Source: Yuukianura sp. NJ FZ-2021 (lineage: Eukaryota). Taken from it: 64,000 nucleotides of DNA. Shown piece by piece: positions 44,201-64,000 of the stretch (within the stretch, counting starts at the first letter, position 1; the number at the start of each line of letters is the position of its first letter). The position numbers and the translations under genes are program-made. Where the stretch lies: assembly GCA_046563655.1 (NCBI GenBank), contig CM102290.1:6014001-6078000 (forward strand), read 5' to 3'. Below the pieces are notes generated by a model. That model was not told the DNA's origin, searched no databases, and saw nothing but the letters and a program-made list of their open reading frames with translations.

Positions 44201-47200
44201 AAAGGCGGTCTTTACGTCGAATTGAATAATCTCGTAGTTCCATGCACTGGCAACTGCAAGAACGATCCTAACAGATTCGTATCTAGCAACTGAAGCATAA
44301 GTATCGTGAAAGTCCACTCCAGGACGCTGCCAAAATCCACGGCAAACTAAACGAGCTTTGTAACGATCGATTTCTCCATCTGGCTTTCTCTTCAGTGCGA
44401 AGACCCAACGGTTGTCCAGGACTCTTTTCTCTGGAGACCATTTAACCAGACTCCAGGTTTTGTTTTTCTCCAGACTGTTAATCTCATCTTCCATTGCTCT
44501 GATCCACTCTAACTTTTGCGGCGAAGCGAGAGCTTCTTCATAATTGTTCGGTTCCAGGATCTCCAGTCGAGCAACATTTGCATGATATCTGGAAGGAATT
44601 TTAATTCCTTCTCTTGGCCGGAAATTGTATCGCTCCAGAGCGTGTGCTGGAATCTGTGCAATGTAATCTCCAGCAGTAGTTGAAATGGTCAATTTCAAAT
44701 CATCCGTGCGTTGAACTTTCCAACTTTTTGGAGAAAGTGAGGATCCAGCTACATTTTCTTCATCCTGGCAGTTATGCTTTTCGGCATTGTCATCTTCTTT
44801 CTCCAGTAGTTTTTCTTTCTTCTCACTGGACTGACGATTTTCTTCATCTCCACTTTCTCCAGACTCCTCCTCAACCACTTCCGTAATTTTCACTTCCGGT
44901 TCTTTCTCCTCAAAAACAACATTAGTTGCAATCACTATGGAGGCGCTGTCTGGATCAAAAAGTCTAAATTTTTTCTCGCAGACACCATCATAACCCACCA
45001 AGTACATTTTTCTGGACTTTGGTGTCCAGACTGTACGTTTCGCTTCTGGAATGTGGGCATAAGCTTTACATCCGAAGACTCGAACATTTCCGAGGTTTGG
45101 TCGCCTCCCCATGATTTTCTGAAATGGCGTTTGCTCCGGTGAGATGCGACTTAAGGTGCGATTGTGAATGTAGACAGAAGTTGCAACGGCTTCCCCCCAT
45201 AGAAAGTCTGGAGTGGAGTAAGTCTGGAGCATCGCCCTTGAAGTATCTTTCAATGTCCTCATGGATCTCTCCACTCTCCCATTCATTTCTGGACAATAGG
45301 CTGCTGAAGTTTCGTGGATGATTCCATTTTCTTCAAAAAATTTGTTCAAGGTTGAATTCACAAATTCACCTCCGTTGTCACTCCTCACCCACTTCATCCT
45401 GTTTCCGGTTTGCCTCTCCATGAAATGAATGTATCCCTTGATCGCTTCTGCAGCTTCTGACTTTCTCTCCAGAAAGTAAACAGTGCGAAAGTTAGTTGCG
45501 TCGTCGATTAGAAGGAGAAAATAGCTGGCTCCTCCCAGTGACACGACGCTCATTTTTCCAGATAAATCCATGTGGGTTCCAGTTCCTGGTTCCGAATTTC
45601 TTTTTGGAACTGAGTTGAAAGTCTTCCTGGGTTGTTTACCGAATTGACAATTTTCACATGTTTCCCGGAGTTGACCTTTGACCTGCTCCGGTGGAATTCC
45701 GTAGACAGCTCCGCGTCTAACGCTGGCCTGAATGTATTCAGTGTTGATGTGAGCGAGACGGCGGTGCCAAACATCCAAGTTGACTTGTTTGAAAGCCAGA
45801 AGTGCTTTTGGCTGAACTTTCACCGGGAGAAAGTTCATGACGTACATACCTTTGCTCACATGGCATGTAGGTCCAGGACCTTGTTTGTGCGAAAAACGAG
45901 CTCCTTCGCTGTCTCTTTCAATCTTGTATCCGAGGTGAGTCATCTGGAGTTCTGAGAGGAGATTAACAGCTCCAGGAATAAACAAAACATTCTTGAGTGT
46001 TTTGTATTGCCATGTACCGTCAGTAAGTGCAAGTAACTGAACAGTTCCTTCTCCAAGGGCATCAACGGCGGTAGAGTTTAGTTGGTCAACTTTCTCTGGG
46101 TTTTGAAAATCTTTGTAATCCACAAACCAATCTTTGGAACCACAGATATGGTTTGACGCTCCAGAGTCAGCATACCAGGTGTCCTCCTGGCGTATTGGCC
46201 AAGGTTCGCTAGCCTGTCCAGGCCCTGGCGAACCACTTTTATTCCTTCTACGATCTTGACCAACAAAAGCCTTGGCATGGGGAAAGTCACTTTCTCCATC
46301 TCCAGACTTTTCACCTTCTTTCCGTTGTCCAAGGAAGCCATTCCTTGAAGCTTCTTTCTCCTTCCGCCCTCGAGAACCACCTCTCCCTTTCCCCTGCCCA
46401 TGGTGGGACTTCTTGGAGAAAGGCCTTGTGTTTTGCTGAGATTCTCCTGAGGAAGCCTCCGAGTTTCCTTGTCTCAGCTTCGGACAGTCACGTTTCCAGT
46501 GATCTTCCGATTTGCACAAGAAGCAACCAGATTTCTTTGAAGAGAAGCCCTTCTTCCGTTCCTTGGTGGGGCTACTTTCTCTCCCCCTTTTTCCCTGTTC
46601 AGAGAGTGCCTTGAAAGCACGGCTCCTTTCTTCTCTGGAAGCTCCTGCTGATTCTATGTTCGTTTGGTCAATTTGCTCCTTTTTCAACCGAGCAAAGAGA
46701 ATGCTCATTGTCTGAGACTCAGCTGGTACAGAGTCCCACGCCCTTTTCAGAGCCGTATAACGTGGCTCAGGAAGTGACGAGACAATTTTAGTCACAACTG
46801 TATCTTCCTCCATGTTAACACCGATTTCTTTTAAATTTCTCCAAATTTCCTCCATCTCCGTGTACGCCTCAACTAAGTTTTGCTTATTACTGACCTTAAA
46901 ATTGAAAAACGCGCTTAGAGTGTGCTGGCGGTTGATGATGCTTGAGTCCGAGTTAATGTCCTTTAGCTTGTCCAGGACTCCCTGGGCGGTGGTGCAGCCA
47001 ACAATGTGTGTCATTTGGCTTGCATTCAGAGTGGGTACAATCACTGCCTGAGCCTGGATGTCCTTCTCGTCCCACGTCGTTTGAGCCCCACTTTCGTCAG
47101 ACTCTGGACGCGGAGTTGTCCCTGAAGCAACATCCCACAACTTGACAGCCTTGAGGATCAATGTAATTTGCATCTTCCATCGGCTATAGTTCGTCCCATC

Positions 47201-50200
47201 TAGTTTAACCACGTGCTTCGTGTCAAACAATGGACGACTATCTCTGCTCGACATTTTGCAAACTTTCACTTTTTCCAAAACAAGTACAACCACAAGTTAG
47301 TCCGAGTCCAGAAAAATAAGTCCAACCACAAACTAGTTCAAGTCCAAAACCAAGTCCAAAACACACACTAGTCCAAGTCCAAAACAAAGTCCACTTTCAC
47401 TTGTTGTCAAAACCTAAGAAACAATTCCAGCAACGCAGAACCTCCCTCTGCTACCAAAGTTGTTGTCAAAATTAAACGCCCTTTTAATTTTGTTATTGAT
47501 GGATCTTTTTAAGCAATGTTGCTGATTTTTATTTGGTCAAAAGAAACTTCAGAAAAAGAATCTTAAGTTTTAATTAGGACAGTTTCCTAGAGAGAGACTT
47601 GAAAGAGACTAACTGACTTTCCGGACTCCCGGGTCCTTTTGTTAACTGGCTTAGAATTTTCGGGAAGTTTCCAGAATATTCTGGAAGCTTCAAGACAAAA
47701 GCAACTAGAAAGGTTTTGAGGGTCCCCTATGTAATAACTTTGACCAGAAGTGTCATATTTGGTTCCCCCTCAGCTCAACTTGTCATCGTAATTCAGATGT
47801 GAGAATCAGTGGTTGAGTTAACCTGTCAGCTAACTTTATATGAGAAAAGGTCAAGTTTTGACCTCTAAACTCAACAACATGATCAGCGTATTCCTGCAAT
47901 GTAATGCAAGGAAAACAACGTATCCGATTGAGATTGATTGATTTCGACTATTTCCTAATTAGTCGTAGTCGCATTAGATTGTATGTGAAAATGTGCTAAC
48001 CGATACACTGCACGCAGATATATTAACACTGGCGAATATTGTCACTGCTTTTTTGTATTAAGTTATTCTTTTAGAATAAACCTTGCCAGTAAAGATTTGC
48101 TTTTATAAATGAAAAATTCGTTAAGGTAAATTAAAACTAGGAACAATTTTCATTACAGCCATATAAATGTTAAACCTCGACCGTTGAGAGGGAAAATTAA
48201 AATCTGAAATAAAGAAATCTCGCCAAACAAAGCGTTTAGAAGTTCGTTTACCATAAAGTAATTTGGCTTAAACGGACTCCATTACAGTCCAATTTTGAAC
48301 TCCGAGTCCGGACTCGAGGCCAGATAAAGTCCGGTTTTGGACCCAAAATTCCAGACAAAAAGTCCGGACTCGTCCGGACTTGCATTCCCTACCGCCGTCG
48401 GTGTATTAGAACAATGGGGAGCTGCCAATGCTCTCGACAAGGAATAATTAGCCGTTTCGGCGTTTTGGAGTGGTGGGGTGACTTTTGATCCAATGCAATC
48501 CGTGACCTATCGTTTCTAGGGGGCTGAAAATTTGCAAGAATGATCCCTACATTGACTTTGACAAACGATATAAATTTCATTCGAATCGCAACAAGGCAAC
48601 TTTTCAATGGGCCTTGGCGCTTATCGTTTGAAACACAACGGACTTGCGCTAGAAGTTACGGTTTTTGGTGAAAGATGCTTGCAGAAAACTGGTGAAAAAG
48701 ATACGGGAAACGTATCACGTATCTCAAAAAACATACGTTACGTTACAACGTACGTTGCAAGATACGTGGTCTGCAGATATCTATCTAATATTGCCGATTT
48801 TATCCCCGAATGTTTCGTTTAATGTTATGTTTGATTCAGCGAAGCCTAATCAAACCGCGAAAGACGAGAATAAAAACTGATGATGATTTTGGTCATTTAC
48901 ACCTTTCAAATAGTTCCTATAGTATTCATGTATGTACATTTGATTTGTATTTTAGCTCTGTGTGAAAGAACGTGACCTTCTACCAGGTGTAATGTTTGAA
49001 TATGAAGCCATCGGAAAGCTGATTGAACAACGATGTAACAGGCTGCTTGTAATTTTGTCTCCCAGTTTTTTGGAAAGTGAAGGGAACAAGTTTCTCGTTT
49101 CGTTTACACAAGCATTAGCCTTAGGTAAGGATGTTTGTTATTCTTGAAAAACTAGGAATATTGTATATTTGGTTTAACGATTTCGGTTTGGTTACAGAAT
49201 CGAGAACACGCAAGATCATTCCGTTGTTGTATAAAAGATGTGAACTCCCATTAAGCGTACGCTACTCGTTCCATCTTGACTACAATAGGGCTGGGGTTGG
49301 AACCTTATGGAATTTCTGGGAGAAATTAAACAATTCTATTGTTAGTAGTCCTCAAGAAAATGCACCTACTAATCAACCAATACGAGTCCAACATGTTACC
49401 AATACGACTCCAACGAGCCATTTAAACTCGACTTCGCTGCCAGGTTAGGAATAATATGGCTATTCGGAGTTTCCCGAAGAAGTTCCTAGCCGGCTCACAG
49501 AGGGAAATTTGCCCGAAATTTAAGACAATCTCTTTCATAAAACAACTCTGCACTCTCTGTGTGTCCTCTCTACGGGGTCTGGCTAAAAGTCGGATCTCGG
49601 ATTCCTCAGATTTCTATGAGGGCGTACCCCAAGCCCCATACGAGGAACTCCTACCCCAAACTCGCGAAGTTTGTATAGTTGAGATAACTATCTCACTTAC
49701 TCTCAGTTTTTTACGCTGATTCCGAATCTGCAATCGGTTTTGACCGCTCTCGTCACTTTCGATCATAATTGTATTTTTGAATAATTAAAATGTCCGTGTG
49801 TGTGAGTTTCTGGGTTCCCCTCTCTACTAATGTATATGGCATATACATGTATATGGCAAATGGTATATGATATGTTAGTGGCATGTATATGGCAAATACG
49901 AGTTGAGACAGTAAACAGTGTCGCTCAGAATTTCAAAAGATACCAAGTCTGAAATCTTGAGAATGACTATTAGTACGAACTTTCCCAGCCGAAGATATTC
50001 GTCATGAATTGCTCAAGGGCGAAAAGGGAGGAGGTAGTATGCAACGGCGGCTAAAACAGAAGTTTTGTGAGACAGGTTAGCCTACTACCTTTCCTAACCC
50101 TAACCTACCCTGACAATAAAAACCTACAGACGTAGTCACTATTGTGTACTTTAACAAACCTAACGCCGCGCGTTCGGCGCGGTAACACAGGCTTAAGCTA

Positions 50201-52397
50201 TCCATCCTTTAATTACTAAGGTTTTGCGGGTGATGAAGGATCACAGAGCGATTGAATCTAATCCGTATTCTTAGTTTAAGTTCAACTTGCGCAGCACAAG
50301 AACTCTGGATCTCGGAGACGACTATTTTTTTAGAGCAACAAAAAACAGAAAACGATGAGAGCGGTCAAATCCGATTGCAGGTTCGGAATCAGCGTAAAAG
50401 AAGGTAGGGAGTGCTCAAGGGTTGAGCACAGGTCTTCTGGAGGTAGCTGACAATTGATGCGACTTAAACCGGCCTGCCTCAAAACTGTGGAAGAACTGAG
50501 AAACCGTTGCAATTGATACTCCAAAATGTCGCTGAAAATTTTCAATGCGGATGTGTGATCCTATTTTGTGTATGAGTCACAAAAATTGTGTTTGCAATTT
50601 TACGTTGAATCGCACCAAAGTCATGATCCAGCTTTGAGGCCTAAATTGCACTGAATTGATGCTATTAATTTGTTGAGCAAGATGCATATAATCCATTGTC
50701 TATGTTGCCATGCCAATGTACTATTACTCAACAACGTTAATATAACTGCATCAAAACAACGAAATCGAGCTATGAATTTGTTTTAAAATTATCACGATGT
50801 GCAATAATTGCAAAGATTTTAAAACAAAAAAAAAATTATTAACTAGATGCGACATTAGGACCATTTTAAACAAAATTTTTGAAGCAAATGTTTTGTGGCG
50901 TTTCTCCTGGCAGCTGACTCAATTTCATGAAAGTTAAGCCTGGTTCACTCAAGATTTTATTTCACGTCACAGAGTAAATTTGCGAATTCGATATACACTG
51001 AAGATAATACTACTGTCTGAAAATAAGTTTTGCAGTCATTATTAAAAATTAATGGGTGACATGAACTTGGTCGTTCCCTGTTGTCTAGGTATGTACCCCT
51101 AAAGGGTGGCTAATTTTTTCGTGTAAAAAAATAGTTTTTGCATTAAACCATGGTTTATTTGGCTTTTTCAAACCAACATTCCTACAAAAGCCCTACATTT
51201 CTCAGAAAATTACACTCGTTTTATGCCAACAGTATCTCCACGTTGTCAAAAGTAATCGTTATAACACGATTACCATTACTAATGCATATGACAATTAGGC
51301 AATTCGTTCAATTCCGTCATTTTCTGAAATTAAGGTGAAAATTAAAATTTAGCACTTTTTTATAGCTATCTATTGGGAAAATTCAAGAAACCCGATAAAA
51401 AATTGCTTGAAGTCCGAATTTCGATCTTTTCGGATAAAACACACCCAGGGTGATGTTTTTTCGCCACTTTGGTTCACAATTTGATGTAACCAATCCGTTT
51501 CTTCAAAAAAATGCAATACAAAGAAGTTGTCTAAAACGGGTAAATTTCCCTCTGTACTGCTTACCTATGCCAAACTCGCAAACCGATTTTGCCGAAGATA
51601 AGCCGGCTATTCTATGAATTAAATTGTTAGGATATTCATCGGATATTATATTTCATTATGCTGGATTCACATTACACCGCAACTCGCAGATTTCTGCTCG
51701 AATTCTGGGTGGTCTCTGCTGATTCGCGTTCACTGGAATTCATTGGAATGTACAGAAAATTTTATCAAAAGTTGCGGGCATCTTTTTCTGCCGAAAAGAG
51801 TTGCGGCTTTTGTTCACACTCACAAAACAGCGGCAGAAAAAATTGCTCCGAAAGGGTTGCGCAGACAAGATTTTGTGAGCTTCATCAAACGAAACTGAAA
51901 AGCAGAGAGTGCATGTCTTCCCCTTCCCGAAGTGAAAGGTTTTGACTTTTGCTGTGCCTCCTTTGAAGCGTCTGCCAGCAACTTTCCTTATCATTCGGGC
52001 GTCGAGAAAAGGTCCAGTGTGAACACGCAACTCACAGAAAGCAAAAAACTGTGACAACTTGCAACTAGCAGGAAGTCCGCGGGTTGCTTTGTCATGTGAA
52101 TCCAGCATTAGTTGTAAATTAGTTTGTGCGCGAATATTATATTTAACTTTAATTTTTTCTCTATTAGACTATTCTCATTGGGACTCTGAAAAATTGGCTG
52201 ACTTGACTTCGCCTCTGGAGCTGTTAACCGTATCAAATCCATCAAAGGAACCTCTATCATCATCAGTGCCACAGTATTCCTCGAAATCTTCATCGAAAAA
52301 ATGGTACAACAAAGTAATTGGTGGCGGAAAAAAAAAGAAGGGAACAAGCAAAAAGTCTTCAAAAAAAATGGCGGAAGTGGGAACTGCCGAAACCTGA
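29258..52397 (+). CDS. Myd88: MyD88 Toll-pathway adaptor (death domain, TIR domain, basic C-terminal extension), ~416 aa
   Basis: Exons 29258-29261, 29342-29522, 29663-29865, 29996-30100, 30238-30350, 48956-49124, 49198-49443 and 52168-52397; all GT-AG, in phase, 1251 nt. Death-domain motifs LNP..GLPRDWRGLAEL and IDRYDV; TIR box1 YDAFLLNADED, box2 LCVKERDLLPG, KIIPLLY, box3 NFWEKL; lysine-rich tail. The 4-nt first coding exon is the least certain part. Confidence 0.93.
30624..31190. mobile_element. hAT-like MITE with GATTAC subterminal repeats (partial second copy ~39140-39258)
   Basis: TIRs CAGGCCCTTTTCGATTAC / GTAATCGAAAAGGGCCTG; 8-bp TSD TCCTAAAG / TCTTAAAG. Confidence 0.8.
32134..32860. 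mobile_element. PIF/Harbinger-like MITE nested in another TIR repeat (~31335 onward)
   Basis: TIRs AGCCTCTTTCA / TGAAAGAGGCT; TTA TSD at 32131-32133 and 32861-32863. Confidence 0.7.
32972..33045 (+). pseudogene. tRNA-derived sequence (SINE-like head or pseudo-tRNA)
   Basis: A-box TAGCTTAAGGGG, B-box GGTTCGAATCC, stem TCTCC/GGAGA, downstream T-run. The anticodon loop CCGGATT lacks U33 and purine-37. Confidence 0.6.
33222..34474 (-). mobile_element. Non-autonomous LINE-like element encoding only a frameshifted ORF1 (coiled-coil/RRM type)
   Basis: 5' AGCAGATGTGT motif; ORF1 pieces 34412-34149, 34152-~33950 and 33947-33735 (NVVIPGL, CRRLG, RLVQVKL, IYINPEKTK); ~400-nt 3' UTR, 3' stem-loop, AATAAA and A-tail at 33222-33235. 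No endonuclease or RT visible. Confidence 0.65.
34578..38415 (+). mobile_element. Three tandem DINE-1/HINE-like (Helentron-associated) elements: 34578-35615, 35933-36898, 36948-38415
   Basis: Each starts TTTAGTCTTCTGGAGACGCACGTCTACG, has a (GTCC/GTCT)n microsatellite, an inverted subterminal copy CTCCAGAAGA, a 3' hairpin ATGCTCAACCCTTGAGCAT and ends in T-runs. A reversed partial copy lies near 50395-50760. Confidence 0.75.
37531..38031. mobile_element. P-element-like MITE inside the third HINE copy
   Basis: TIRs CAAGGCAACTAAACAAAA / TTTTGTTTAGTTGCCTTG; 8-bp TSD GATATCAC at 37523-37530 and 38032-38039. Confidence 0.8.
40226..40641 (-). repeat. 3' LTR of the copia element, preceded by the polypurine tract GAGGGAGAG (40642-40650)
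   Basis: Direct repeat of 47461-47876; purine run abuts it on the minus strand. Confidence 0.95.
40873..42492 (-). CDS. env: Envelope-like glycoprotein with class I fusion-protein architecture
   Basis: Furin site RHKR (42168-42157), then hydrophobic FILTGIILSTLVISLITSIGLGTAAVISS, a heptad-like helix (LAELGNLAQEHTKKLEEIEKRL..), a Cys-rich ectodomain, sequons NFS/NQT/NMT, TM WTGIVIGFLMTSMIAICIALGICYY and a short charged tail. Confidence 0.88.
   Translation of the reverse strand: MDIQKHFSHVHCWISDDDIFGLIHGASGDFQVASPVLWKKSDTQVTKGSNQVHLLIKFTSPCEMLDINSVHQDNVQMAKERCEEIYSKLFTSEILKMCPTEETTEIHHRHKRFILTGIILSTLVISLITSIGLGTAAVISSAGNKVTLAELGNLAQEHTKKLEEIEKRLNIHRRALDELRQFTEKLAGDFLESKEKQVDTTFLISSITGRLLIGNQILKETNRQWHTKRKLFVPFLDYLNFSLPCGSSCPLDLGTPKSCHMTYDKMAMKMRFEVPILDQNLKVVKADAFSLMHKTKNQTCEIKYIGPKKAIVSLHEDCVYGANFKEPADDILIIAPDAGCSTSGQLPGMTKHFTVEKCLPTHPGDEKDFVQLKQQGENNYIYCYGNQITIGGKTTNCPDHVFPIPKEVSIKINDYLYEGSIFEGTHIQGQDRIFTSKANWHLGHKLNMTNLLELHGLLDEDKKLEENMEKIKITHEAYFTENPWTGIVIGFLMTSMIAICIALGICYYRARKERVPIIKITAAKLQDAVSESKKETEED
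42433..47254 (-). pseudogene. copia gag-pol (disrupted) with a ~200-aa extension after RNase H
   Basis: ATG 47254; CCHC knuckle CFLCKSEDHWKRDC; protease WYADSGAS; integrase WHRRLAH..CENC, HMDLSG, RSDNGGEF, NGRVER; RT YKARLV, QFDVKTAFL, SIYGLKQS; RNase H YCDSDFAG, SCEAEY, VDNQSAI, KHIELRYHF, ADILTK. Frameshifting deletion at ~43980 removes YVDD; in-frame TAA at 43161-43163. Confidence 0.93.
47439..47456 (-). promoter_or_regulatory. Primer binding site complementary to the 3' end of initiator tRNA-Met
   Basis: TGGTAGCAGAGGGAGGTT, 4 nt downstream of the 5' LTR; TGGTAGCAGAG pairs with the ...CUCUGCUACCA end of metazoan tRNAiMet. Confidence 0.85.
47461..47876 (-). repeat. 5' LTR of the copia element
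   Basis: Matches 40226-40641; by eye I found one substitution (CAAGACAAAAG vs CAAGACCAAAG). Confidence 0.95.
51659..52107. mobile_element. PIF/Harbinger-like MITE in the last MyD88 intron
   Basis: TIRs TGCTGGATTCACAT / ATGTGAATCCAGCA; TTA TSD. Confidence 0.75.
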
Positions 52398-54080
52398 TCT
52401 ACCCTCACTTCAACCAGTACTAAGTGTAATCCAAACTGTGATTTCGTACAAGCGACAATCACCAATTGTGTAGTCCCAACGAAGAAGGGCGTACCTCGGA
52501 TTTTGAAATTTTTTTTTCCCTTGGAGACGAGAAAAGTAAATAAATTTCGCCAGAACTCGGAATTCGATTTCAAAAATGTAATTAGAAATCGCCTTAACAA
52601 AGTATCGATGGTGCAAGTAACTTTTTTCCCTTGAAAATTTTGTATTTAGCAAAGTAGCTAAAGTGCAGAGTATTTTTTCATTGTATTCACAAAAACTTTC
52701 GAAATTACTTAAATAGTTTGCGCACCCTCATTAAACTGTTGCAACTGCTTTGAAAATTTTCAGTTGACATTGACGAAAAGAACTGAAAATTATTTAATGG
52801 AAGCCAATAAGTCTAAAGTACACATCCAGCCTCACTAAACCTAGAGAAGGGCCAAAGTGGGGAAGGGGGCCCTTTCAGAAGTCACTGTCAACTTAATTCA
52901 GAGAACCAAAGTGTTTTCTGTGAGGTCAAAGTTTCGCACATCACTTTTCACAAGCGCCGAACTCATATAACTACAATTTTTTTTCAAAATTTTCGAATAT
53001 CTTTAATGATATTAAAAGATCAGTGAGACGTAAACCGACCGGAATTTAACCGTACAATATAATAATAGGTCAGCAATAAGGCGGTTTTCTAAAACAAACT
53101 CAATGTAACCTAGTAATCCCCGTTTTACGCGTTAATAGTGATCAAATCCTGGCCACGATATGTTCATTGGTGAAAACCGAAGCGAAATCATCCAGTAGTT
53201 TCTGAGTAGTGTGGCTGGTTTTTTCCAGCGTTGCTGTAAGCTTAAACGTCCAGTGGCTTAGTTGCCACTCTCACAGGATATCCACTGGAAGCAATACACC
53301 AAAAATGCAAACTTTTAGTGGAGGTACGAAATTAAAAATCTAGCGGGAAATTCAAAAAAAAAAAAAATAAAAATAAAATTTAAAATTACAAAATAACATC
53401 AAAAAGAGTTTCTTTCATCGTTAAATTTAATAATTTATTTAAAAATCATACGAAACCGTTATTTCCTTCGTCTCGTACGGTAATTTGAATTTGTTGGGGT
53501 GAATTGGGGCAAAAGCGCCAAGTTTAAAATTAGCATCACAAAACGAAAGATTTGTCGGTTAGCGCTTGAGGCTAACTTATAGCGTTGGTTTAATTTTAGC
53601 ATTTCTGGGTTTTCCGTTGGTATTGTGATGCACAGGCATAAGAATAAGCATAAGTTCAATTCCGTACTTCATAGGAGTAGGATCTAGAGATTAAGTCTCT
53701 CCAATTTCAATTCTCATAATTTAACTTTTAAGTCTTTCATTCAATTTTCATTTCTTTTAACTTTAATTATCCACTAAATAAACTTCAACTAAACAAAGAA
53801 CGAGTCAGTTGCTACAGGCCAGAGTTGACCGCTGATTTACAGTGGATTTACTGGATTCTACATATCAATCATTTCATGGTCCTTCGACAACCGTCTGTTC
53901 AACGACTGTAGCAACTCGTCATCATCATTGGGATTGGTAACCAGTGATAAACGATCACTGGCAGGTAACGTACTGTATCGTTCCTTCTGTCGTCTGCTAT
54001 TGGTAGTCACAGTATTGCCAAATTTCCCGATCTAAAGGTTGAGGTTTAGTTGGTCTTAGTAACTGACTAAAGGTACAGCC

Positions 54081-57000
54081 ATGGCTGACTTTATGAAGTT
54101 AGTGACTGTCAGAAATGCGATAAAAACGAAATTAACGAAAATTTTAAATGATTTAAAACAAAATGCTGCTGATATGACTCTTGTGGAATCAGGTTAAATT
54201 TAATGATGTGGACAAGCATCAGTCCAAGTTGGATTTCCTCGTCTCAAGAGACCATGTTCTCGATGTTGAATTCCGCGGAGGAGATAAACGTCCAAATCGA
54301 CGCAGGGAACGTCGTAGAGGAGGTCATCAAGGAGTGTACCATCCTCATCAAGCAGTCTCAGGCTAACATTATGGCAAAAGAGCGTGTGGATGTTCCTGTT
54401 GCTTCGACATCGGGTCGGATTCCGAAATCTGAACAAACCGAGTCAAATGTTAAGGCCAGACTGCCGAAACTGGAGTTACCGGATTTCGATGGAACTTTTG
54501 AAGACTGGATCAGCTTCAAGGATCAGTTTCAGTCCATGATCACGGACAATTCTTCACTTTCGGCCACTGACAAGATGCAGTACCTTAAATCCTGTCTAAA
54601 AGGAGAGGCAGAGAAGCTAATTGGTCACTTCACGATTTCTGCCAACAATTTTCAACCGGCATGGGATCTCTTGGTGAGACGGTATGGTAATGAAAGGGAA
54701 ATTATCTTTTCATTAATTAGGAAGTTGTTCAATTTGAGTAAGGTCAATGGTGGTGATAATGTCGCAACTCAGTTGCGAAAACTGTTAGATTCATTTTTAC
54801 AGATCACCAGCCAACTCAGAGTAATGGGGCGTAGAGTGGGGCAGTGGGATGACCTCCTTGTTGTCACAATGGTGGACAAACTTGACTCGGACACGAGGAA
54901 AGAGTGGGGCAAGGCACTGTCAGGCACTAATATGCCAACCGCTAAGGAACTGGAGGACTTTCTGGAAAATTATGTCAGGGGGATCCAGGCCTTTACGTCC
55001 AATGACAAGAACAACTCCAAATCTAAAGAACGACAGACTGAACAAAAGTCACATACCGTCAAGGCCAGAGAAATGTGTCATTATTGTCCAGAGTCACATC
55101 CGCTTTTCAGATGCGAAAAATTTGCCGCATTGAGAAGGGAGGATAAGGTAAAAGTTTTAAAGCAGTGTAAATTATGTTTTAATTGTCTTTCTAGTGGTCA
55201 TTGGACAAATAATTGCAAGTGGAAAGGAACTTGCAAAAAGTGCGGAGAGAAGCACAACACTCTTATCCATGACGGGGAAAGGAAGGAGAAGACTAAAACT
55301 GAGACAGCTGGTTTGAGCAGTGGGTCTAATGGATCCATTTCATCAAATTTCGTCAGCGGTGGGACTGTACTCCTGTCAACAGCCATTGTGGAGGTAACTG
55401 ATTCAGTTGGTTCCTCTCAAAAATGTCGCGTGTTCCTGGACAGTGGGTCAGAGGCTTCGTTCATGACGGAAAAATGCGCAACCAAATTGGGTCTCAAAAG
55501 ACGTAAGTGTAATGTCTCAATCAACGGAGTTGGGGCTAATGGAATTTGTAAGGCAAATGGGACTGTTAATTTCAAAATAAGGTCATGTGTATCTGAGTTT
55601 GAACTTAATGTTTGTGCCCTAGTGTTGTCTAAAGTTACAGGTGAACTTCCGTCCTTTCCTGTTGGTAGTAAGTGGAAGTCGTGGGAACATTTGGCTACTT
55701 TGAAGCTAGCTGACCCTCGATTCTATGAACCACGGGAAGTGGATATACTTTTGGGTGCTGACGTAGCAGAATACGTTTTCCTGGACCAGCGAGTGATTGG
55801 GAGAAGGAACGAGCCAATTGCCCGCTCCAGTCAACTCGGATGGATCATTTCAGGGCCTGTTACAAATGATGGTAGCAGTTCTGTTCTCTCGTCAGTCGTC
55901 ACTCTTCGCGTTCATTCGGCTCGGGTCGAGTGTGAGGAACTATTGCAGAAATTCTGGGAGTTAGAGCAAGTTCCAGATCACCCGAATTGGACAGCGGAAG
56001 AGACAGAAGCGGAAAAGCATTTTCTTGCTCACACCAAAAGGGAAAACGGAAGGTATGTTGTGTCACTTCCCATGAAATCTAACATTTCCAATTTAGGCAA
56101 ATCGAGGGACACAGCCCTCAAGAGACTCTTTGCAATTGAGAGAAAATTGGCAAAGGATGTCCAGCATCAACGTCAGTACAGGGACTTCATGTCGGAGTAC
56201 TTGACCCTTGGCCACATGGAGCCAGTACCAAAAGAGGCACTTGGTGAGACACTTGGTAAGACGTATTATTTGCCTCATCACTGCGTCTTGAAAGAAGACA
56301 GTGCCACGACCAAATTGCGGGTAGTATTTGATGGATCCTGCAAAACAAGTTCTAATCTGTCTTTGAACGATTGTATGATGGTAGGTCCAGTCGTTCAGCC
56401 AGATTTATTCACACATTTACTGAGATTTCGTATGTACACTGTGGCTCTAAAGTCTGACATCAAGAAGATGTACAGACAATTCTTAGTTTCTCCCGCAGAT
56501 AGAGATTTCCAAAGAATTCTATGGCGAGAGACCACTGATGAACCCGTTCGTGAGTTCCGATTGAAGACGGTGACTTACGGTACAGCCGCCGCTCCATTTT
56601 TAGCCACTCGTTTGCTAAATCAGTTGGCAGAAGACGAGGGAGCACGATTTCCATTAGCAGCTGTGGCCTTAAGGAAACATTTTTATGTTGATGATCACCA
56701 CGGAAGTTTCCCTTTGGAATCACTGGCAGCGGACACAAAGCTTCAATTGGAAGGAATTTTGAGTACAGTGGGACTGGAATTAAGTAAGTGGGCTTCTAAT
56801 TTTCAAAATGTGATTGGTAAGGAAATTGTGTCAAATGAAATGCCCAATTTAATCTCTTTAACCGATGAAAGTCAATCAAAGGCTTTAGGAGTTCAGTGGA
56901 ACTCCACAGAGGACAATTTTTCATTTCCAAGTTATAGGTGTGACAGACAGGAATTCTCCAGAAGACATTTGCTAAAAGAAATCGCCAGAGTCTTTGACCC

Positions 57001-59323
57001 GTTGGGATTCTTAGCACCCTTTACCATCGTCGGCAAGTTGATCTTCCAGCAACTTTGGGCCATTGACAGAGAAAGTGGTAAGAAAATGGACTGGGATGCT
57101 CCGATCCCAGAGTCCATTTTGGGGGAGTGGAATTCCTACCTAGACGGAATGAGTAAGTTGTCGGTAATTAAAATACCAAGGTTGATTAATTGTGAATGTA
57201 TCTCGGAACTGCACGGTTTCTCAGATGCGTCTGAGAAGGCCTATAGCGCAGTAGTTTATCTCCGTGCCTTTAGTTCTTCTATTTCAGTTCGTGTGGTTGC
57301 TGCAAAAACGAAAGTAGCACCGCTGAAGGCACAGAGTCTGCCACGACTTGAATTGTGTGGAGCCCTACTGCTAGCAAAACTGATGAATTCAGTTATCTCT
57401 GCAATGGATCTGCGGTCTCCAGTTCACTGTTGGACGGATAGTGAGATTGTTCTCAAGTGGATTTCGTCACCGTCTAGAAGATTTGTGACCTTTGTGGCCA
57501 ACAGAGTGTCCGAAATACAACAGTTAATACCTGGTGAGTCATTTCATTTTATTCCAGGAATCATCAATCCGGCAGATTGTGCCTCGAGGGGACTTCCGGT
57601 TGATGAATTGTCCTCATTCAATCTATGGTGGAATGGGCCAGATTTCCTACAGTGTCCTGGAATCCCGAATTTCCAATTTGAAAGGGAAATAGAACGGGAG
57701 AACTTGGAAGAACGTAAGGTGAAATTGGTCAATCATAATCAGTTGGTAGATTCGATTTTGAACAGGTACTCGTCTGCACCAAAGCTCTTCAGAGTCATTG
57801 GTTATGTACTTCGGTTTATTTCGAATGCCAAGGACAAGAAGGAAGGAAGACAAATTACGAAGTTGGACTTTCCATTGCTGTCAGTTGAAGATTTGGAACA
57901 GGCGATGCTCAAATGTGTTTGGTTGAGTCAGCGCCAGGATTTCCCGGAGGAGATCAAGCGTCTAAGTCGGGGCAAAATGGTAAAGGCATCAAGTCGAATT
58001 GTGTCGTTAACGCCTTTTCTAGATTCTCATGGCAACATAAGAGTCGGTGGAAGACTCGGGAAAGCAGAAGTACCAGATTCTGCTAAACATCAACTGATCT
58101 TGGATGGTAAATCTGCGTTTGCCAAATTGTTGGTTGAAAACCTCCATCGGAAGCTGCATCATGGAGGAGAGATGGTTCTACGCTCAGAACTTCAACAACG
58201 GTTTTGGATCTTACGCGTAAGGAATTGTGTGAAATTAGTTTTGAGAACTTGTGTCAGATGTAGGCGTGTCAGAGGAATAGCCATGAAGCAGCTCATGGGT
58301 GATTTACCGGCAGCCAGAGTAAGACCAGCAGCAGCGTTCGAGCGGACAGGAGTCGACTATGCTGGCCCGTATACGCTTCAGTCAGTTGGAGGCAGAGGAC
58401 GGAAGCCGTTTAAAGCATATATCGCACTGTTCATTTGCTTCGTTATTAAAGCCATTCACTTGGAAGTGGTAACTGATTTGACTACTGAAGGATTCTTGGG
58501 AGCCTTTAAGAGGTTCATTTCACGCCGTGGTAAGCCCTCTCACATGTATTCTGATTGCGGAACGAATTTCGTTGGTTTCGACAATGCCATCAGAGAGGTA
58601 ATATCATCGCCAGAGTTAAATGCTGACATACATGCAAATTTAGCAGAGGATGGTGTAGAGTGGCACTTCAATCCTCCGTCAGCTCCACACCAAGGTGGAT
58701 TGTGGGAATCGGCCGTGAAAAGAGTCAAATTTCATTTAAAAACTGTCATTGGCGAAGAGGTTCTAACATTATCTGAATTTAATACTATTTTGTGTCAAAT
58801 AGAAGCTGTCCTGAATTCGAGACCACTGGGTGCCCTATCAGAGGACCCAGATGACATGGAAGCCTTGACTCCTGGTCACTTCCTGGTTGGGCGGTCATTG
58901 GTGGCATTACCACAACCGGACTTTCAAGAAATCCGGATGAACCGACTCTCCAGATGGGAAAGACAGGAGCAAATTACCCAGAGATTCTGGAATCGGTGGT
59001 ACAAGGAATGTTTGTCCAGTCTTCAACAACGTGTGAAATGGCAGAGACCACTGGAGAATGTCAAAGTTGGAGATCTCGTGTCCATTGTTCAAGACAATTT
59101 ACCACCTCTCAAGTGGAGACTAGGACGTGTAATCGAGTTACACTCAGGAGACGAGGGATTGGTCAGAGTCGTGACAGTTAAGACTGCAAAAGGAGTCTAC
59201 AGTCGTCCCATTGTCAAAATAGTTCCACTACTTCATTGCAACAACTTGGAATCTGACGAAGAAGAATTTGAAGAGAATCAATTGTCAGTTCAAGAAGACG
59301 TAGAAGATGAGTCTAAGTTGTAA
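54081..59323 (+). CDS. BEL/Pao gag-pol polyprotein; long ORF 54203-59323, extreme 5' gag apparently frameshifted
   Basis: LPKLELPDFDG gag motif, three Cys/His knuckles, FLDSGSEASF protease, YLPHH..KLRVVFD, DIKKMYRQ, FYVDD RT, LHGFSDAS and PRLEL RNase H, VDYAGP / SDCGTNF / GGLWE integrase. The upstream ATG at 54081 hits TAA near 54196. Confidence 0.93.
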
Positions 59324-59498
59324 CTTACATTTCAATTATTCATTTCATAACTATTAACTTTTAGTTTAAGTACTATGGTTTAGTTTTATAAGTTTTATTT
59401 TCATTTACTTTCATTTATTTTCACTTATTCAGGTTGGTTTGTTTCAATTACCACACCATGCGGAGCCACTTTGATTTCTTTTCCAAAAAATAACGGTG

Positions 59499-59666
59499 GA
59501 TCTTGACAGTCATGCACATTGGGTTTCTCATCTTCTTGCTTAAGTGGAGGTTTTAGCAAATTGAGCCTGCCCTTAGTTTTGACGGGGAAGGGTCAGTTTC
59601 GCACTGCCCTATTGGCTCACCCGACCACTTAAGTCCCTTTCTTTTACTAGTGCTGGCGTCATGATC
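59499..59666 (+). ncRNA. Putative structured cis-acting RNA in the BEL 3' UTR
   Basis: Nested stems that are conserved, with compensatory changes, in the second BEL element (62881-63035, minus strand). Confidence 0.6.
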
Positions 59667-62207
59667 ATTTAACTAATTAATTGAATGACAGAGTAGATCT
59701 GTCATTGTGGGCCGGCATGTTGGGGTGAATTGGGGCAAAAGCGCCAAGTTTAAAATTAGCATCACAAAACGAAAGATTTGTCGGTTAGCGCTTGAGGCTA
59801 ACTTATAGCGTTGGTTTAATTTTAGCATTTCTGGGTTTTCCGTTGGTATTGTGATGCACAGGCATAAGAATAAGCATAAGTTCAATTCCGTACTTCATAG
59901 GAGTAGGATCTAGAGAAAGTCTCTCCAATTTCAATTCTCATAATTTAACTTTTAAGTCTTTCATTCAATTTTCATTTCTTTTAACTTTAATTATCCACTA
60001 AATAAACTTCAACTAAACAAAGAACGAGTCAGTTGCTACAGGCCAGAGTTGACCGCTGATTTACAGTGGATTTACTGGATTCTACATATCAATCATTTCA
60101 GAATTGTTTAGGCTTTTTGTATCTAATTAATGTAAACCCTTAGGGCAACGCTACGCCGCTTTGGGTTAATCCATTTTGTGCATTTCTTCCACTGGATATA
60201 CAGCCGTGGACGAAACCTTGCAAAAGTGGATTTTTAACAACACCGGTTTTTAAAAATAAAACAAAAAATATCTGGTTTTTGGTTAAAGCCATGATTTATT
60301 TGGGTTTTCTCGGCTTAAACCAACATGTCCACAAAAACTCGATATTTCTCAGAAAATGAATTTATACTTTAGAACTATTGAATTTTATTCAAAAACAAGA
60401 CTTTTCTGTTAATTAAGTATCCCTTTTTCCCATTTACGCAAGTTGGCTTAAACATAATAAATGTGAATAAAAACCGCTCGGTTTAAATCGTGGTTTAAAC
60501 CATGGTTTAGATCATTTCTCCTAAACCAAAGCCACCCTGTTTCTAATAATTAATCCGGACAGACAGACAGGCAGACATGAATAATATTATAATAATAGCG
60601 ACGCAATTACAATAATCTTAACAGCCTAACGAACATTACAACACAGCTTGCCCAAACAGAATGACACACAGACAGACACCCCAATATCATAACATGAATC
60701 TTTTGAAAAAATTTTTGGAGATGAATTCGGTAATTTTGTTGCCGACTCTTGTTAAATTTTGTTTACATTTTTTCTTGGCAACGCAAGTCGTCATCGCGTT
60801 TTGAGGTACGCCATTCTTCGTCGGAGCTATAGAATTGTTCCTTAGGTTAGGTTCCCTACGTCACTCTAGGCGAATAAATTCTGAAATAAATCTTAGCCTA
60901 AAGTAATAGGGCAGCAATGCCTTGTAATTGTTAGTTTATCTTAAGTATAACCTAAAGTTGAGAAAACTAAGCTCAGGAATGGTCAAATACTGATAAGTTC
61001 AGGAATTCGGGTCGAAAATTTCGGTTCAACTTGGGATTTGGTTTTGTACGCCAGGGATTGCTGGAAGCAGGCTGTGTACCGTACTCGTATGTTGTTAAAC
61101 TTGCGTGAGTTAGGTTTATCCAGAGAAGGTTATCCAGATAGAGAAGTTTATCCAGTTTATTACCTGGGACGGTCCTTGCGACTGCAAGCGTGCGGGCTTT
61201 TATTTGTAAATTCTGCAGATAGCGGGTGTGTGTGCCAGACTACTGCAGGCGCCTGCGGTTGGCCTGCAGGGTGAGCCACGTGTTGTTTTAGTATTTTCGT
61301 TACAAGTTTAGTAAACAAACAGTGAAAGTATGAGCTACTTTGTTTTTCCCGAGTCTGTGTGTCCGTCCGCTTGCCGGTCAAGCGGGTGTTGCTTTGATAC
61401 CGCTGATTTTCAATCCGTATTAGCAGATGTACTTTACATAGTTCAGGGATGGTTATTCTGTTTTCGGTTTACCTGAAGTGGACAACCTTTACCGGGTCAA
61501 CGGTAACGTCAAGTAAATTTGTGATTGAAATCAGAAAAATGACCTCTACAAAAGTTGTTAATCTCATTAAGGGAAACAACTTCCATTTTTTTGATTAAAA
61601 ACTCCCCGAAAAGTCATTCTGGGCTATCTGAGAAGTCAAAATTGCAAACCGATACTATGCTTCTGAAAGCCCGTCTGAAGTGTTCCAGTCTCAATTTTTC
61701 TGCGAAAATTCCATTTGTTTCATTAAAAACTCCCCAAAAAGTCATTCGGGCTATGTTAGGCCTCGAAATTCCAAACCGAAATTATGCTTCTGAAAGCCAA
61801 TCTGAAGTGTACCAATCTCAAATTTTCCAAGAATCCATATCTATCCATGGAAAAAAATCCATCGCTTTCCCCAAAATCTGGCGTGAAAGAGTCAAAATTT
61901 TATCCATGCACTGGACGTCCAGTGGACGGAAAATCCATCCAGAGCTCCGGTGTGAAACCGCCTTATATGTATGGAGAAACACTCCTCCTTCCTTACACCA
62001 GTAGTAATGCTAAAAGCGTTGACTGTTACACACGAAAGATTGAGAGAGCGGTACCTTTGTCATACACATACTATCCCTTCTCTAGTGCGCAAGTCAGTAG
62101 TACAATAGTACTATTTTCACATTAAAGTAAACGCTAACCCTTTCCCTTTGATTCTCTTTTCCACACAAGTGGATTAATTTAACTCTTTCTTTGTTTCTTT
62201 CTTTTAA

Positions 62208-62459
62208 CTCTTCGAAGAACCAATCTTTGATGTTAGTCTCGCATCAACCTCAGCTACGGAATTCCATTCAATCAACTCACTTTCAGACAATCAAGCCCCT
62301 ATGGAATTTTTTGTACAAGGAAATCAAACTGAACTAATCGACTTGTCTGAAACGAAACTTTATTTAAAAGTTAAAATTGTAAAGTCGAACGGCACGGATT
62401 TGGATGACAACAGCATTGTTGCTCCAGCCAACAATTTCCTTCACTCGCTATTTCTACAG
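62208..62459 (+). pseudogene. N-terminal fragment of a Polinton/Maverick (adintovirus) major capsid protein, cut by a BEL LTR
   Basis: Translates as LFEEPIFDVSLASTSATEFHSINSLSDNQAPMEFFVQGNQTELIDLSETKLYLKVKIVKSNGTDLDDNSIVAPANNFLHSLFLQ, matching the PxEF..IDL..T.L..K.KI..NNFLHSLF pattern of Polinton capsid proteins. In-frame TAA just upstream. Confidence 0.75.
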
Positions 62460-64000
62460 TGAAATGATTTGAGCGCTGGTTCTGATTGGGTCCGAAGATG
62501 ATTTAAGTTTTACTAGTTTATTTACATAATTAATCGAATACTTGAGTGGAAAGGAAAATTCTATCTTAGATTGTGGTCTGAAACCAAAAGAGACGCAGCA
62601 AAGACTTATGAATGAATGAATACTACTAAAAGACAAAAAGTACACACAACTTCTTTTCCCCTAAGAACTAATGTAAAAGTGTATTGTTGTTGTTCGGGCT
62701 TGAGTCGGAGGCCAGTTCGGAAGCATTCGATGATGCTATTTTAAATCAGAAAGAAAAAACCGCTTCCTCACTGGGATCATCTCAACCTGACACAACGGTA
62801 TCAGAATGAAACTATCAATTCACCCAAACATGCCGGCCACCATGACAGATCTCTGTCATCAAATTAAACACTAAGAGACTCTTGACACCCTGATAAGGAA
62901 CAGAGAGGGACAGTGATCGGATGAGCCAATCGAGCAGCGCTAGGCCTACTCTTCCCCGTCAAAACTAAGGGTAGGCTCAATTTACTTGACCTCCACTGAA
63001 GCAAGAAGAAAATGAAAGTGATCAGCAGCGTCAAGGTCACGTTATCTCCCAACGAAGTAAAAATCCAAATGAAAAGACACGGCATGTGGCAAATGACAAC
63101 TTCCATCTGATCTGAAATTAAAGAATAAAATGAAATTAACCTAAAGTTAAACCAATGTTGAAATGTAAAATTGAAAAGTAAAATTATGACTTAACTAATG
63201 AAATAGCCTATCATTAAACTCGAAATCATGCAAATTAAAAAACTGAGTAGATGACGTATTGTTTGTAGAAGAGTTATGTAATGACGATTGACTTGATTAG
63301 AGGTTCAGCTTCATCTTCCAATTCTTCTCGTTGTAACAATGGAGCGATCTTCACAACAGGACGAGTGAATGAGCCAGTTTCTGTCTTGACGGTAACTACT
63401 CGAACGTAACCGTCGTCACCAGGATGAGTTTCCGTCACTCGAGCCAATCTCCACTTCAACGGTGGTTGGTTATCTTCGATCATGGTGACCAAATCTCCGG
63501 TTTTGATGTTATTAGCAGGATTTCGCCATTTCTGCCGTTCTTGGAGTCCGGCCAAGTACTCCTTGGACCACCTAGTCCAAAACGTTTGACAAATCTTCTG
63601 CTGCCTCTCCCATCTGGCCAATCTGTTAATTGGAACTTCCACGACGTTAGGTTGTGGCAATGCAACCAATGATCTCCCAATCAGAAAATGAGCCGGAGTC
63701 AATGCTTCTAGGTCATCGAGTCCATCTGTCAACTCGCAAAGTGGCCTAGAATTCAAAATTGCCTCAATCTGGCACAACACAGTTATGAACTCCGATAATG
63801 TTAAAATGTCAATACCAATGATAGTTTTAAGATGAAACTTTACGCTTTTTACCGCTACTTCCCATAACCCACCCTGATGAGGTGCTGCAGGAGGATTGAA
63901 ATGCCATTCAATCCCATCAGCAGCCAAATTGGAGTAAATGTCAGCGTTAAATGATTCGGACAAAATGATCTCCCGTAGTTCATTGTCCAAACCGACGAAA
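62460..64000 (-). mobile_element. Second, divergent BEL/Pao element (3' end): integrase C-terminus 63990-63274, 3' UTR, 3' LTR 62830-62460
   Basis: WHFNPPAAPHQGGLWE, LNSRPL, LTPAHFLIG, PPLKWRLARV motifs; LTR begins TGTTTGGGTGAATT and ends AATCATTTCA like the first element; runs off the window. Confidence 0.92.

What the first reader, a model, noticed from the sequence alone, without database searches (positions are those of the whole stretch)
59499..59666. Covarying structured RNA shared by the 3' UTRs of two divergent BEL/Pao elements
Seen: 59499-59666 (+) and 63035-62881 (-) share an almost invariant core AAATTGAGCCTRCCCTTAGTTTTGACGGGGAAG although the LTR interiors differ. Both fold into the same nested stems. 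Outer stem: GATCTTGAC..GTCATGATC versus CTTGAC..GTCAAG. Next: TAAGTGG/CCACTTA versus CAGTGG/TCACTG, with an A-T to C-G compensatory change. Then TGAGCC/GGCTCA closes a three-way junction with a CCC..GGG hairpin and a sequence-variable hairpin (AGGGTCAGT/ACTGCCCT versus GAGTAG/CTGCTC). Inference: a cis-acting RNA, possibly for export, packaging or nuclease resistance. It has no hammerhead CUGANGA/GAAA core.
Basis: partly seen in the sequence, partly recalled or inferred. Interest (0 to 1): 0.72.

Follow-up and report, generated by a model that had tools for sequence, protein, structure and literature searches.

The report
RNA module shared by unrelated retrotransposons
A folded RNA element in the untranslated tail of one group of jumping genes keeps its shape while its letters change, and parts of it recur in two unrelated kinds of jumping gene in the same animal, which suggests a docking site for a host protein that has not been described.

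Summary
Real, and larger than reported. The motif lies in the 3' UTR of one BEL/Pao clade (12 of 35 sampled families, plus a 13th found later) whose integrases are 51-78% identical. Fourfold-degenerate sites of the window's two elements are near saturation (22 of 64 identical), the core is not (78 of 94). Stems covary in sequence-only alignments (14 of 27 and 12 of 20 pairs with double changes). One Ty3/Gypsy family holds the bulge plus a capped hairpin, and one LINE family holds an 18-letter loop hairpin in a similar junction, both in sense 3' UTRs. Best reading: a cis-acting docking site for a host mRNA-handling factor (export, stability or germline transport), about 50%; function is untested. 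No Rfam match; CTE, ENE, Egl-type signal, xrRNA and known ribozyme features were not met. Seen in this one genome only. The scan's earlier notes held no look-alike sequence.

The parts
53492..60100 (+). BEL/Pao element E1: LTRs 53492-53876 and 59718-60100, 5-bp target-site duplication, primer-binding site 53877-53887, long reading frame 54173-59323 (frame interrupted near its 5' end)
   Evidence: LTRs 99.5% identical
59437..59469 (+). 5' arm of long-range helix P0
59499..59517 (+). outer stem, 5' strand (pairs with 59650-59666)
59539..59547 (+). helix P1, 5' strand (pairs with 59625-59633); most strongly covarying helix
59549..59561 (+). module X: GG of a 2-3 bp helix followed by the conserved A-rich bulge (GGUY-N-GYAAA); its partner CC-GA lies at 59620-59624
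59562..59567 (+). helix P2, 5' strand (pairs with 59614-59619), closes the three-way junction
59570..59586 (+). module Z: hairpin P3 with the near-invariant loop; same 18-letter pattern in one LINE family
59590..59609 (+). hairpin P4 (group-1 form; group-2 BEL and the Gypsy family carry module Y here)
59614..59666 (+). 3' strands of P2, module X, P1, a pyrimidine-rich loop and the outer stem
59684..59706 (+). hairpin directly before the polypurine tract
59707..59739 (+). polypurine tract (59707-59717) and first 22 letters of the 3' LTR = 3' arm of P0
63274..64000 (-). BEL/Pao element E2, end of the integrase frame (runs off the window)
63079..63103 (-). E2: 5' arm of P0
62881..63035 (-). E2: outer stem (63021-63035 with 62881-62894), P1 (62993-62998 with 62911-62916), module X (62980-62991), P3 (62955-62971), P4 (62932-62951)
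62808..62859 (-). E2: hairpin before the polypurine tract (62842-62859) and 3' arm of P0 (62808-62838)
62460..62830 (-). E2: 3' LTR (end read from the sequence; same last ten letters as E1's LTR)

Best explanation
The whole 3' UTR of this BEL/Pao clade folds, on the sense transcript, into one domain of about 300 nt. A long-range helix (P0) clamps an upstream arm onto the end of the polypurine tract and the first ~22 nt of U3; inside it a long irregular stem lifts a compact head made of a conserved A-rich bulge (module X) and a three-way junction carrying one of two conserved capped hairpins (modules Y or Z). Shown here: the helices, by covariation; the conserved unpaired letters; the sharing of X+Y with a Gypsy family and of Z with a LINE family. 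Inferred: the fixed unpaired letters form a binding surface, and because three element classes with unrelated proteins and different reverse-transcription chemistry keep it on the sense strand after their last reading frame, the ligand is most likely a host mRNA-handling factor that licenses the full-length transcript for nuclear export or shields it from decay (working like the CTE or avian DR elements), with transport into the oocyte (like the I-factor signal) as the next candidate. P0 is BEL-specific scaffolding that fixes the domain and may also keep the plus-strand primer region paired until reverse transcriptase arrives. That it is a selected sense-strand RNA structure: about 0.9. That its ligand is a host factor: about 0.5.
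For: Covariation on MAFFT sequence-only alignments: group 1 (10 rows, 7 families) 93.7% of cells paired, 14 of 27 pairs with a change on both sides, 0 of 500 shuffles, slid controls 34-50%; group 2 (8 rows, 5 families) 92.4%, 12 of 20 pairs, slid controls 27-53%. A model built on group 1 alone ranks group-2 cores at the top (25.4, 17.5, 15.0 bits; background up to 10.6). P0: each family's arm prefers its own PPT end and LTR start, mean -26.7 against -18.4 kcal/mol for permuted partners, 0 of 20,000 permutations; sense duplex stronger than antisense, -26.7 against -20.9. Gypsy: 6 of 23 exact matches to the 19-letter module-Y pattern lie in one Gypsy family (control with up to one mismatch: 2; protein identified); all 6 also carry module X, which was not in the pattern (chance about 0.0014 per site); a model built on BEL group 2 scores two of four tested copies 22.2 and 20.2 bits through X and P1 alone, unrelated sequence at most 12.0; among the 6 copies the bulge varies only at the places that vary in BEL. 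LINE: 3 of 26 exact matches to the 18-letter module-Z pattern (control 3 with up to one mismatch); 24.7 bits with the group-1 model against at most 8.7 for nine chance loci holding the same 13-letter word. Precedents read as passages: CTE and DR elements export unspliced RNA through host factors (PMC3856414; PMC4338338); unrelated Drosophila retrotransposons share a transport stem-loop (PMC6719617).
Against: No function, ligand or transcript was observed. Single-sequence folds do not give the junction; forcing it costs 0.2-8.4 kcal/mol per family. The shuffle control ignores relatedness, and R-scape was not available. The P0 search window was chosen after seeing the folds; the unrestricted test is weaker (8 of 12 families at most 4 of 100 shuffles, three of them through another part of the UTR), and one family (L030) has only 13 bp. 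One family inside the clade (L017) lacks the core, so it is dispensable for some elements; most BEL families and the 12 Gypsy loci at 55-61% identity lack it. Within the Gypsy family only 1 of 24 pairs has a double change, not beyond shuffles (89 of 500), and two copies scored only through module Y. The LINE form lacks the GG/CC helix of module X, is one family, and one copy has a change in the loop; capture without function is possible there. None of 80 metagenome BEL loci carried the core.
Confidence: 0.5

Rival explanations
1. Packaging or dimerisation signal read by the element's own Gag zinc knuckles; the Gypsy and LINE copies were captured from BEL RNA and either use their own nucleocapsid-like protein or ride in BEL particles.
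For: Purine-rich internal loops and exposed G residues are what retroviral nucleocapsid proteins bind (recalled). The core is clade-restricted like an element-specific signal. Other notes of this scan propose hairpin arrays as packaging signals in this genome (unchecked).
Against: The Gypsy family has its own complete gag-pol frame and the LINE does not use particles; no self-complementary loop is conserved in all families; known signals of this kind lie mostly near the 5' end (Ty1 and Ty3 passages).
Confidence: 0.2
2. The domain serves reverse transcription: P0 and the adjacent hairpin hold the polypurine tract and U3 start in a set conformation, pausing the polymerase or sharpening plus-strand primer selection; the head is a structural cap.
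For: P0 spans the PPT/U3 border in 12 of 12 families and coevolves with each LTR start. The Ty3 PPT also lies in a paired region (PMC11381356, passage). The Gypsy carrier pairs its PPT with a nearby pyrimidine tract in predicted folds.
Against: It explains P0 but not the invariant unpaired letters, nor their presence in a LINE, which has no PPT. Plus-strand priming happens on an RNA/DNA hybrid, where the fold is already undone (established knowledge).
Confidence: 0.12
3. An unknown catalytic or nuclease-blocking RNA: short invariant loops joined by tertiary contacts, as in small self-cleaving ribozymes, which do spread among unrelated retroelements.
For: Architecture of helix, conserved internal loop, helix, junction with conserved loops; ribozymes have conserved unpaired letters and occur in many retrotransposons (PMC6765202, passages). 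A 4-bp alternative pairing between X and Y is compatible with 32 of 32 cells in group 2. One LINE copy begins at the first base of P1.
Against: No Rfam family matches the cores at E up to 10 or 5. A cut between the reading frame and the PPT would sever the template from its 3' LTR (inference). The alternative pairing has no double change. No conserved loop-to-downstream pairing. Two other LINE insertions start 117 nt upstream or further.
Confidence: 0.1
4. RRE-like target of a Rev-like protein made by the BEL clade from a spliced RNA, borrowed in trans by the Gypsy and LINE families.
For: A long stem presenting a branched head of about 300 nt resembles the RRE plan (recalled); the nematode LTR element Cer1 exports its RNA with a protein from a spliced mRNA (PMC10309623, abstract).
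Against: No extra reading frame of 150 residues or more lies in E1 after the polyprotein; splice-acceptor-like sites are not at a constant place across the 13 families.
Confidence: 0.06
5. No function: inherited sequence between related elements and chance folding.
For: Weak single-sequence z-scores.
Against: Saturated synonymous sites (27-40% identity in 11 family pairs) against invariant loop letters; compensatory changes; family-specific P0.
Confidence: 0.02

Closest known systems
Constitutive transport element (MPMV/SRV CTE, NXF1 intron CTE) and avian retrovirus DR elements
   Same: Structured cis-acting RNA in the untranslated 3' part of a retroelement, with fixed loop letters on variable stems; read by a host factor in the known cases (passages).
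   Different: The viral CTE is a stem with two near-identical loops; this element has single-copy, dissimilar modules on a branched head and a helix with the PPT and U3. No ligand is known here.
Egl-BicD localisation signals (I-factor ILS, gurken GLS, K10 TLS; similar loops in G2 and jockey)
   Same: Precedent for unrelated retrotransposons sharing one RNA structure to use a host machine (PMC6719617 passage).
   Different: Those signals are unbranched, need two helices of at least 6 bp with 3'-strand bulges and have little fixed loop sequence (PMC13186709 section 8); here the conserved bulge is on the 5' strand, the head is branched and the loop letters are fixed.
ENE triple-helix elements of transposons (Evade/Copia93)
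   Same: Structured element near the 3' end of an LTR-retrotransposon RNA that raises its stability (PMC12501189, search listing); several families here have a pyrimidine-rich loop below P1.
   Different: The loops here mix C and U, are missing in four group-1 families, and are not the conserved part.
HIV RRE with Rev; Cer1 with CERV
   Same: Long stem presenting a branched head (RRE plan recalled); export of unspliced RNA by an LTR element.
   Different: No element-encoded partner identified; located after the reading frame, not in it.
Paired PPT regions of yeast Ty1 and Ty3 RNA
   Same: PPT lies in a structured or paired region (passages).
   Different: There the pairing is low-probability or not tied to a coevolving partner in the passages read; here a ~24-bp arm 225-290 nt upstream tracks each family's LTR start.

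Membership tests
BEL/Pao LTR retrotransposon (host element E1) | Single gag-pol frame with DUF1759, Pao peptidase A17 region, integrase with DUF5641; LTRs, target-site duplication, PBS, PPT | tested here: met
Any Rfam 15 family (including the self-cleaving ribozyme families held there) | Covariance-model match at or near the family's gathering score | tested here: not met
   6 weak matches at E up to 10 in 59300-63400, best 22.3 bits, all far below gathering; one (SNORD82, 17.7 bits against 43, E 7.5) touches the core on the opposite strand; 1 weak match in 10 loci, outside the core
Self-cleaving ribozymes | Site-specific self-cleavage | not testable with these tools
   needs an in vitro assay
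CTE (MPMV/NXF1 type) | Unbranched stem with one or two near-identical NXF1-binding internal loops | tested here: not met
   branched head, single-copy dissimilar modules; CTE plan
CTE (MPMV/NXF1 type) | Loop letters matching the CTE core | tested here: inconclusive
   no tool returned the CTE sequence (one search found nothing relevant); a likeness of a few letters is recalled only
CTE (MPMV/NXF1 type) | Export of intron-bearing reporter RNA | not testable with these tools
   needs cells
Egl-BicD localisation signals | Unbranched stem-loop, two helices of at least 6 bp, bulges on the 3' strand, U-A pairs at two sites | tested here: not met
   conserved bulge on the 5' strand; the 3'-bulged hairpin of group 2 has only 2 bp above its bulge (definition). 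The long outer stems were not examined for such sites
ENE | U-rich internal loop on both strands, conserved across carriers | tested here: not met
   read from folds: mixed C/U loops in some families, continuous stems in L008, L028, L030, L031; U-runs were not counted by script
xrRNA class 1 | Three-way junction | tested here: met
xrRNA class 1 | Pseudoknot between the P3 loop and downstream sequence (definition recalled) | tested here: not met
   best complements 4-6 letters at scattered places (-24 to -79 from the LTR) in 8 of 8 group-1 families
xrRNA class 1 | Blocks Xrn1 | not testable with these tools
   needs an in vitro assay
RRE-type element | Element-encoded binding protein from a spliced RNA | tested here: inconclusive
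   no further long frame, no constant acceptor-like site; transcripts not seen

The most novel reading that the evidence does not exclude
A portable, modular RNA fold (bulge X combined with capped hairpin Y or Z) has spread by capture or convergence among BEL/Pao, Ty3/Gypsy and LINE retrotransposons of one arthropod because it engages one host machine, for instance an invertebrate export or germline-transport receptor; it would be an invertebrate counterpart of the CTE shared across LTR and non-LTR elements, and would point to a host RNA of the same fold.
Probability: 0.35. Interest if true: 0.85.

Novelty: new variant of a known kind. Interest (0 to 1): 0.68.

Why it matters
BEL/Pao elements are widespread in animals, yet the paper searches made here returned no description of a structured cis-acting RNA in their 3' UTR. 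This gives a covariation-backed model that can be probed directly. Sharing across three retrotransposon classes makes a host ligand findable by pull-down and bears on how invertebrate retroelements get full-length RNA out of the nucleus or into the egg. The P0 helix shows the internal region coevolving with the LTR start, which should limit LTR exchange between families.

Tried and rejected
Rfam scans of the window region and ten carrier loci: nothing near a gathering score. RNA sequencing runs: no RNA holder listed, so no reads were laid. Pattern scans: 0 and 1 matches in viral contigs, 1 in prokaryote genomes; neither match has the fold. Related LINE loci (20 fetched) had no group-1 model match. 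Of 17 non-assigned module-Y matches fetched, 6 were Gypsy, 4 BEL and 7 lacked module X. Three one-mismatch sites: one decayed BEL copy, two chance. Splice-acceptor idea: acceptor-like sites precede P0 in some families but at no constant place. Alternative X-Y pairing: compatible but without covariation. A count of 187 G-U pairs against 8 A-C mismatches in the folds is biased by folding the sense strand and is not used. Sense versus antisense energy of the core alone is undecided (sense lower in 9 of 13). Not done: a descriptor scan for individual ribozyme cores, a scripted count of U-runs, and the P0 shuffle test for the 13th family; these stay open. R-scape was not available. Supplements were not read; a supplement of a transposon or RNA-motif survey could hold this motif.

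Full report
Observation. The window holds a full BEL/Pao element, E1 (LTRs 53492-53876 and 59718-60100, 99.5% identical, 5-bp target-site duplication; Pfam domains), and the 3' part of a second, E2, on the minus strand. Their integrases are 66% identical over 232 residues. Neutral divergence cannot explain it: 78 of 94 core letters agree against 22 of 64 fourfold-degenerate sites. Folding each copy alone is unconvincing (z -1.70 and -1.24; neither gives the junction), so the case rests on comparison.

Distribution in BEL. The genome has at least 150 DUF5641 matches. I fetched 77 of them besides 16 loci from a DNA search, and grouped those with an integrase match into 35 families at 85% identity. 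Twelve carry the core; they form two sister groups of 7 and 5 families inside a 13-row branch (support 93/92, not starred) whose remaining row, L017, lacks it. Carrier integrases are 51-78% identical and fourfold sites 27-40% in 11 pairs. A 13th carrier (L180/L193) turned up by pattern; I assign it to BEL by its 3' end, not by protein.

The fold. On sequence-only alignments, group 1 (10 rows, 7 families) has 93.7% of cells paired and 14 of 27 pairs with a change on both sides; no shuffle of 500 reaches this and slid controls give 34-50%. Group 2 (8 rows, 5 families) gives 92.4% and 12 of 20 pairs (3 of 500 shuffles reach the pair count, none the other main measures; slid controls 27-53%; I added P2 and the two distal pairs of P4 by hand). 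The shuffles ignore relatedness. Common to all families is module X: a 2-3 bp GG/CC helix above a small purine-rich loop, then an 8-11 nt bulge on the 5' strand ending in GYAAA. Above it, P2 closes a three-way junction. Group 1 fixes the loop of P3 (module Z); group 2 fixes the cap of P4, a triloop over two pairs and a four-letter 3' bulge (module Y). A model built on group 1 alone finds group-2 cores at 25.4, 17.5, 15.0 and 10.7 bits (the last at background; L047 missed) and nothing at L017 or L020.

In 12 of 12 families the predicted fold pairs an arm upstream of the outer stem with the end of the PPT and the first ~22 nt of the LTR. Arms prefer their own family's partner: best in 7 of 12 rows and 9 of 12 columns, mean -26.7 against -18.4 kcal/mol, 0 of 20,000 permutations; 9 of 12 beat all but at most 1 of 200 shuffles; L030 is weak. 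The window for this test was chosen after seeing the folds. The unrestricted test is weaker (8 of 12 at most 4 of 100 shuffles, three through another partner), and 2 of 17 testable non-carrier families pass it, both with partners 63-73 nt from the LTR. With P0 included the window's two domains fold at z -2.49 and -3.08.

Carriers outside BEL. (a) A Ty3/Gypsy family (gag, protease, RT, RNase H, integrase): a module-Y pattern gave 48 matches (control 5); of 17 fetched, 6 lie in the 3' UTR of this family, and all 6 carry module X and P1, which were not in the pattern. A stricter 19-letter pattern has 23 exact matches, 17 BEL and these 6 (control 2). The 5' part of X occurs by chance in a 30-nt window with probability about 0.0014. 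A model built on BEL group 2 scores two of four tested copies 22.2 and 20.2 bits through X and P1 alone; the other two score 15.3 through Y; unrelated sequence reaches 12.0. Among the copies 99.3% of cells pair but only one pair shows a double change, not beyond shuffles; the bulge varies just where it varies in BEL. The head is unbranched here, nothing else in the UTR resembles BEL, and 12 related Gypsy loci at 55-61% identity lack the pair of modules. (b) A LINE family: an internally deleted copy with ORF1, the two ends of ORF2, a third frame, a short-repeat tail and a 13-bp duplication, plus two truncated insertions. Its 3' UTR matches the 18-letter module-Z pattern exactly (3 of 26 matches, two of them one duplicated locus; control 3) and scores 24.7 bits with the group-1 model, against at most 8.7 for nine chance loci that hold the same 13-letter word. 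It folds into the same junction at a cost of 1.4 kcal/mol but lacks the GG/CC helix. Twenty related LINE loci gave no match. All carriers have the modules on the sense strand after the last frame.

How it most likely works. Shown: helices, fixed unpaired letters, sharing. Inferred: fixed bulge and loop letters on exchangeable stems are a binding surface. The three classes share no proteins and prime reverse transcription differently, but all need a full-length polymerase II transcript to leave the nucleus, survive with a long 3' UTR and reach the germ line. A host mRNA-handling factor is therefore the simplest ligand (0.5). Simple retroviruses do this with the CTE and DR elements (PMC3856414 and PMC4338338, passages), and unrelated Drosophila retrotransposons share a transport stem-loop (PMC6719617, passage). 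Rivals: Gag packaging signal (0.2), a role in reverse transcription, best suited to P0 (0.12; the Ty3 PPT is also paired, PMC11381356 passage; Ty1, PMC7969010 passages), an unknown ribozyme or nuclease block (0.1; PMC6765202 passages), an RRE-like target (0.06; PMC10309623 abstract). Whether the Gypsy and LINE forms arose by capture or convergence is open; the patchy distribution and the exact 18-19 letter matches favour capture from BEL followed by remodelling (inference).

Comparison with known kinds. No Rfam family matches. The CTE plan, the Egl-BicD geometry (PMC13186709, passages and section 8 part 1), a conserved U-rich ENE loop (PMC12501189, search listing only) and the xrRNA pseudoknot (definition recalled) are not met. 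It may work like a CTE without being one. SPRE of mammalian endogenous retroviruses (PMC8579622, abstract) is a further analogue that I did not compare; PMC10746203 was searched for five terms and held none. Paper searches returned no description of this element; the library lacks most subscription journals and no supplement was read. The scan's own notes hold no look-alike sequence and no finding with these words; three notes on repeated hairpins in non-coding LTR elements of this genome are on a related theme and were not checked.

Limits. One genome; 80 metagenome BEL loci lack the core; the closest named relatives of the protein include springtail and other arthropod elements at 50-56% identity, whose DNA I could not read. 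No transcript, probing or ligand data.

Verdict. A real, undescribed, covarying 3' UTR RNA domain of a BEL/Pao clade, with modules shared by a Gypsy family (well supported) and a LINE family (moderately supported). New variant of a known kind; interest 0.68.

Noticed in passing
L097, L098, L100-L104, L109, first 250 nt after the stop codon: BEL elements from metagenome contigs (49-56% integrase identity to E1) carry one to three copies of a different small hairpin with a fixed internal loop in their 3' UTR; no Rfam match. It recalls the NXF1-binding loop of the CTE (from memory, untested) and deserves its own study.
   Followed up: partly
L122, L132, L145, L148, L153, after the polyprotein stop: By eye, an acceptor-like site followed by a short frame with cysteine/histidine knuckles in several metagenome BEL loci: possibly a second, spliced gene.
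   Followed up: no
L187 5207-5701 (-) and L224 6124-6711 (+): Two LINE families carry a third frame after ORF2, with hydrophobic stretches at the start and near the end and visible similarity to each other; no Pfam match.
   Followed up: partly
L205, L208, L210, L211: Short elements that hold only a LINE ORF1, a 3' UTR ending in a shared G/C-rich hairpin and an A-tail: non-autonomous LINE derivatives keeping ORF1.
   Followed up: no
window 33699-34316 (-): Decayed relative of that LINE ORF1 (28% identity, 7 stops).
   Followed up: no
window 35527-35617, 36810-36900, 38327-38417, 50412-50485: Dispersed repeat family; a copy elsewhere is the insertion site of the truncated LINE in L096.
   Followed up: partly
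window 40226-47760 (-): Copia element with near-identical LTRs and several frame breaks; neither RNA model matches in it.
   Followed up: partly
window 62292-62459 (+): Short frame cut by E2's LTR that recalls a Polinton-type capsid protein (from memory); Pfam gave no match.
   Followed up: partly
L058, L062, L069, L071, L079 and others, just before the PPT: A hairpin directly before the polypurine tract is also seen in many BEL families that lack the core (read).
   Followed up: no
window 62911-62916 (-): E2 lacks three letters of the P1 3' strand that its relative L003 has: copy-specific decay that shortens P1.
   Followed up: yes
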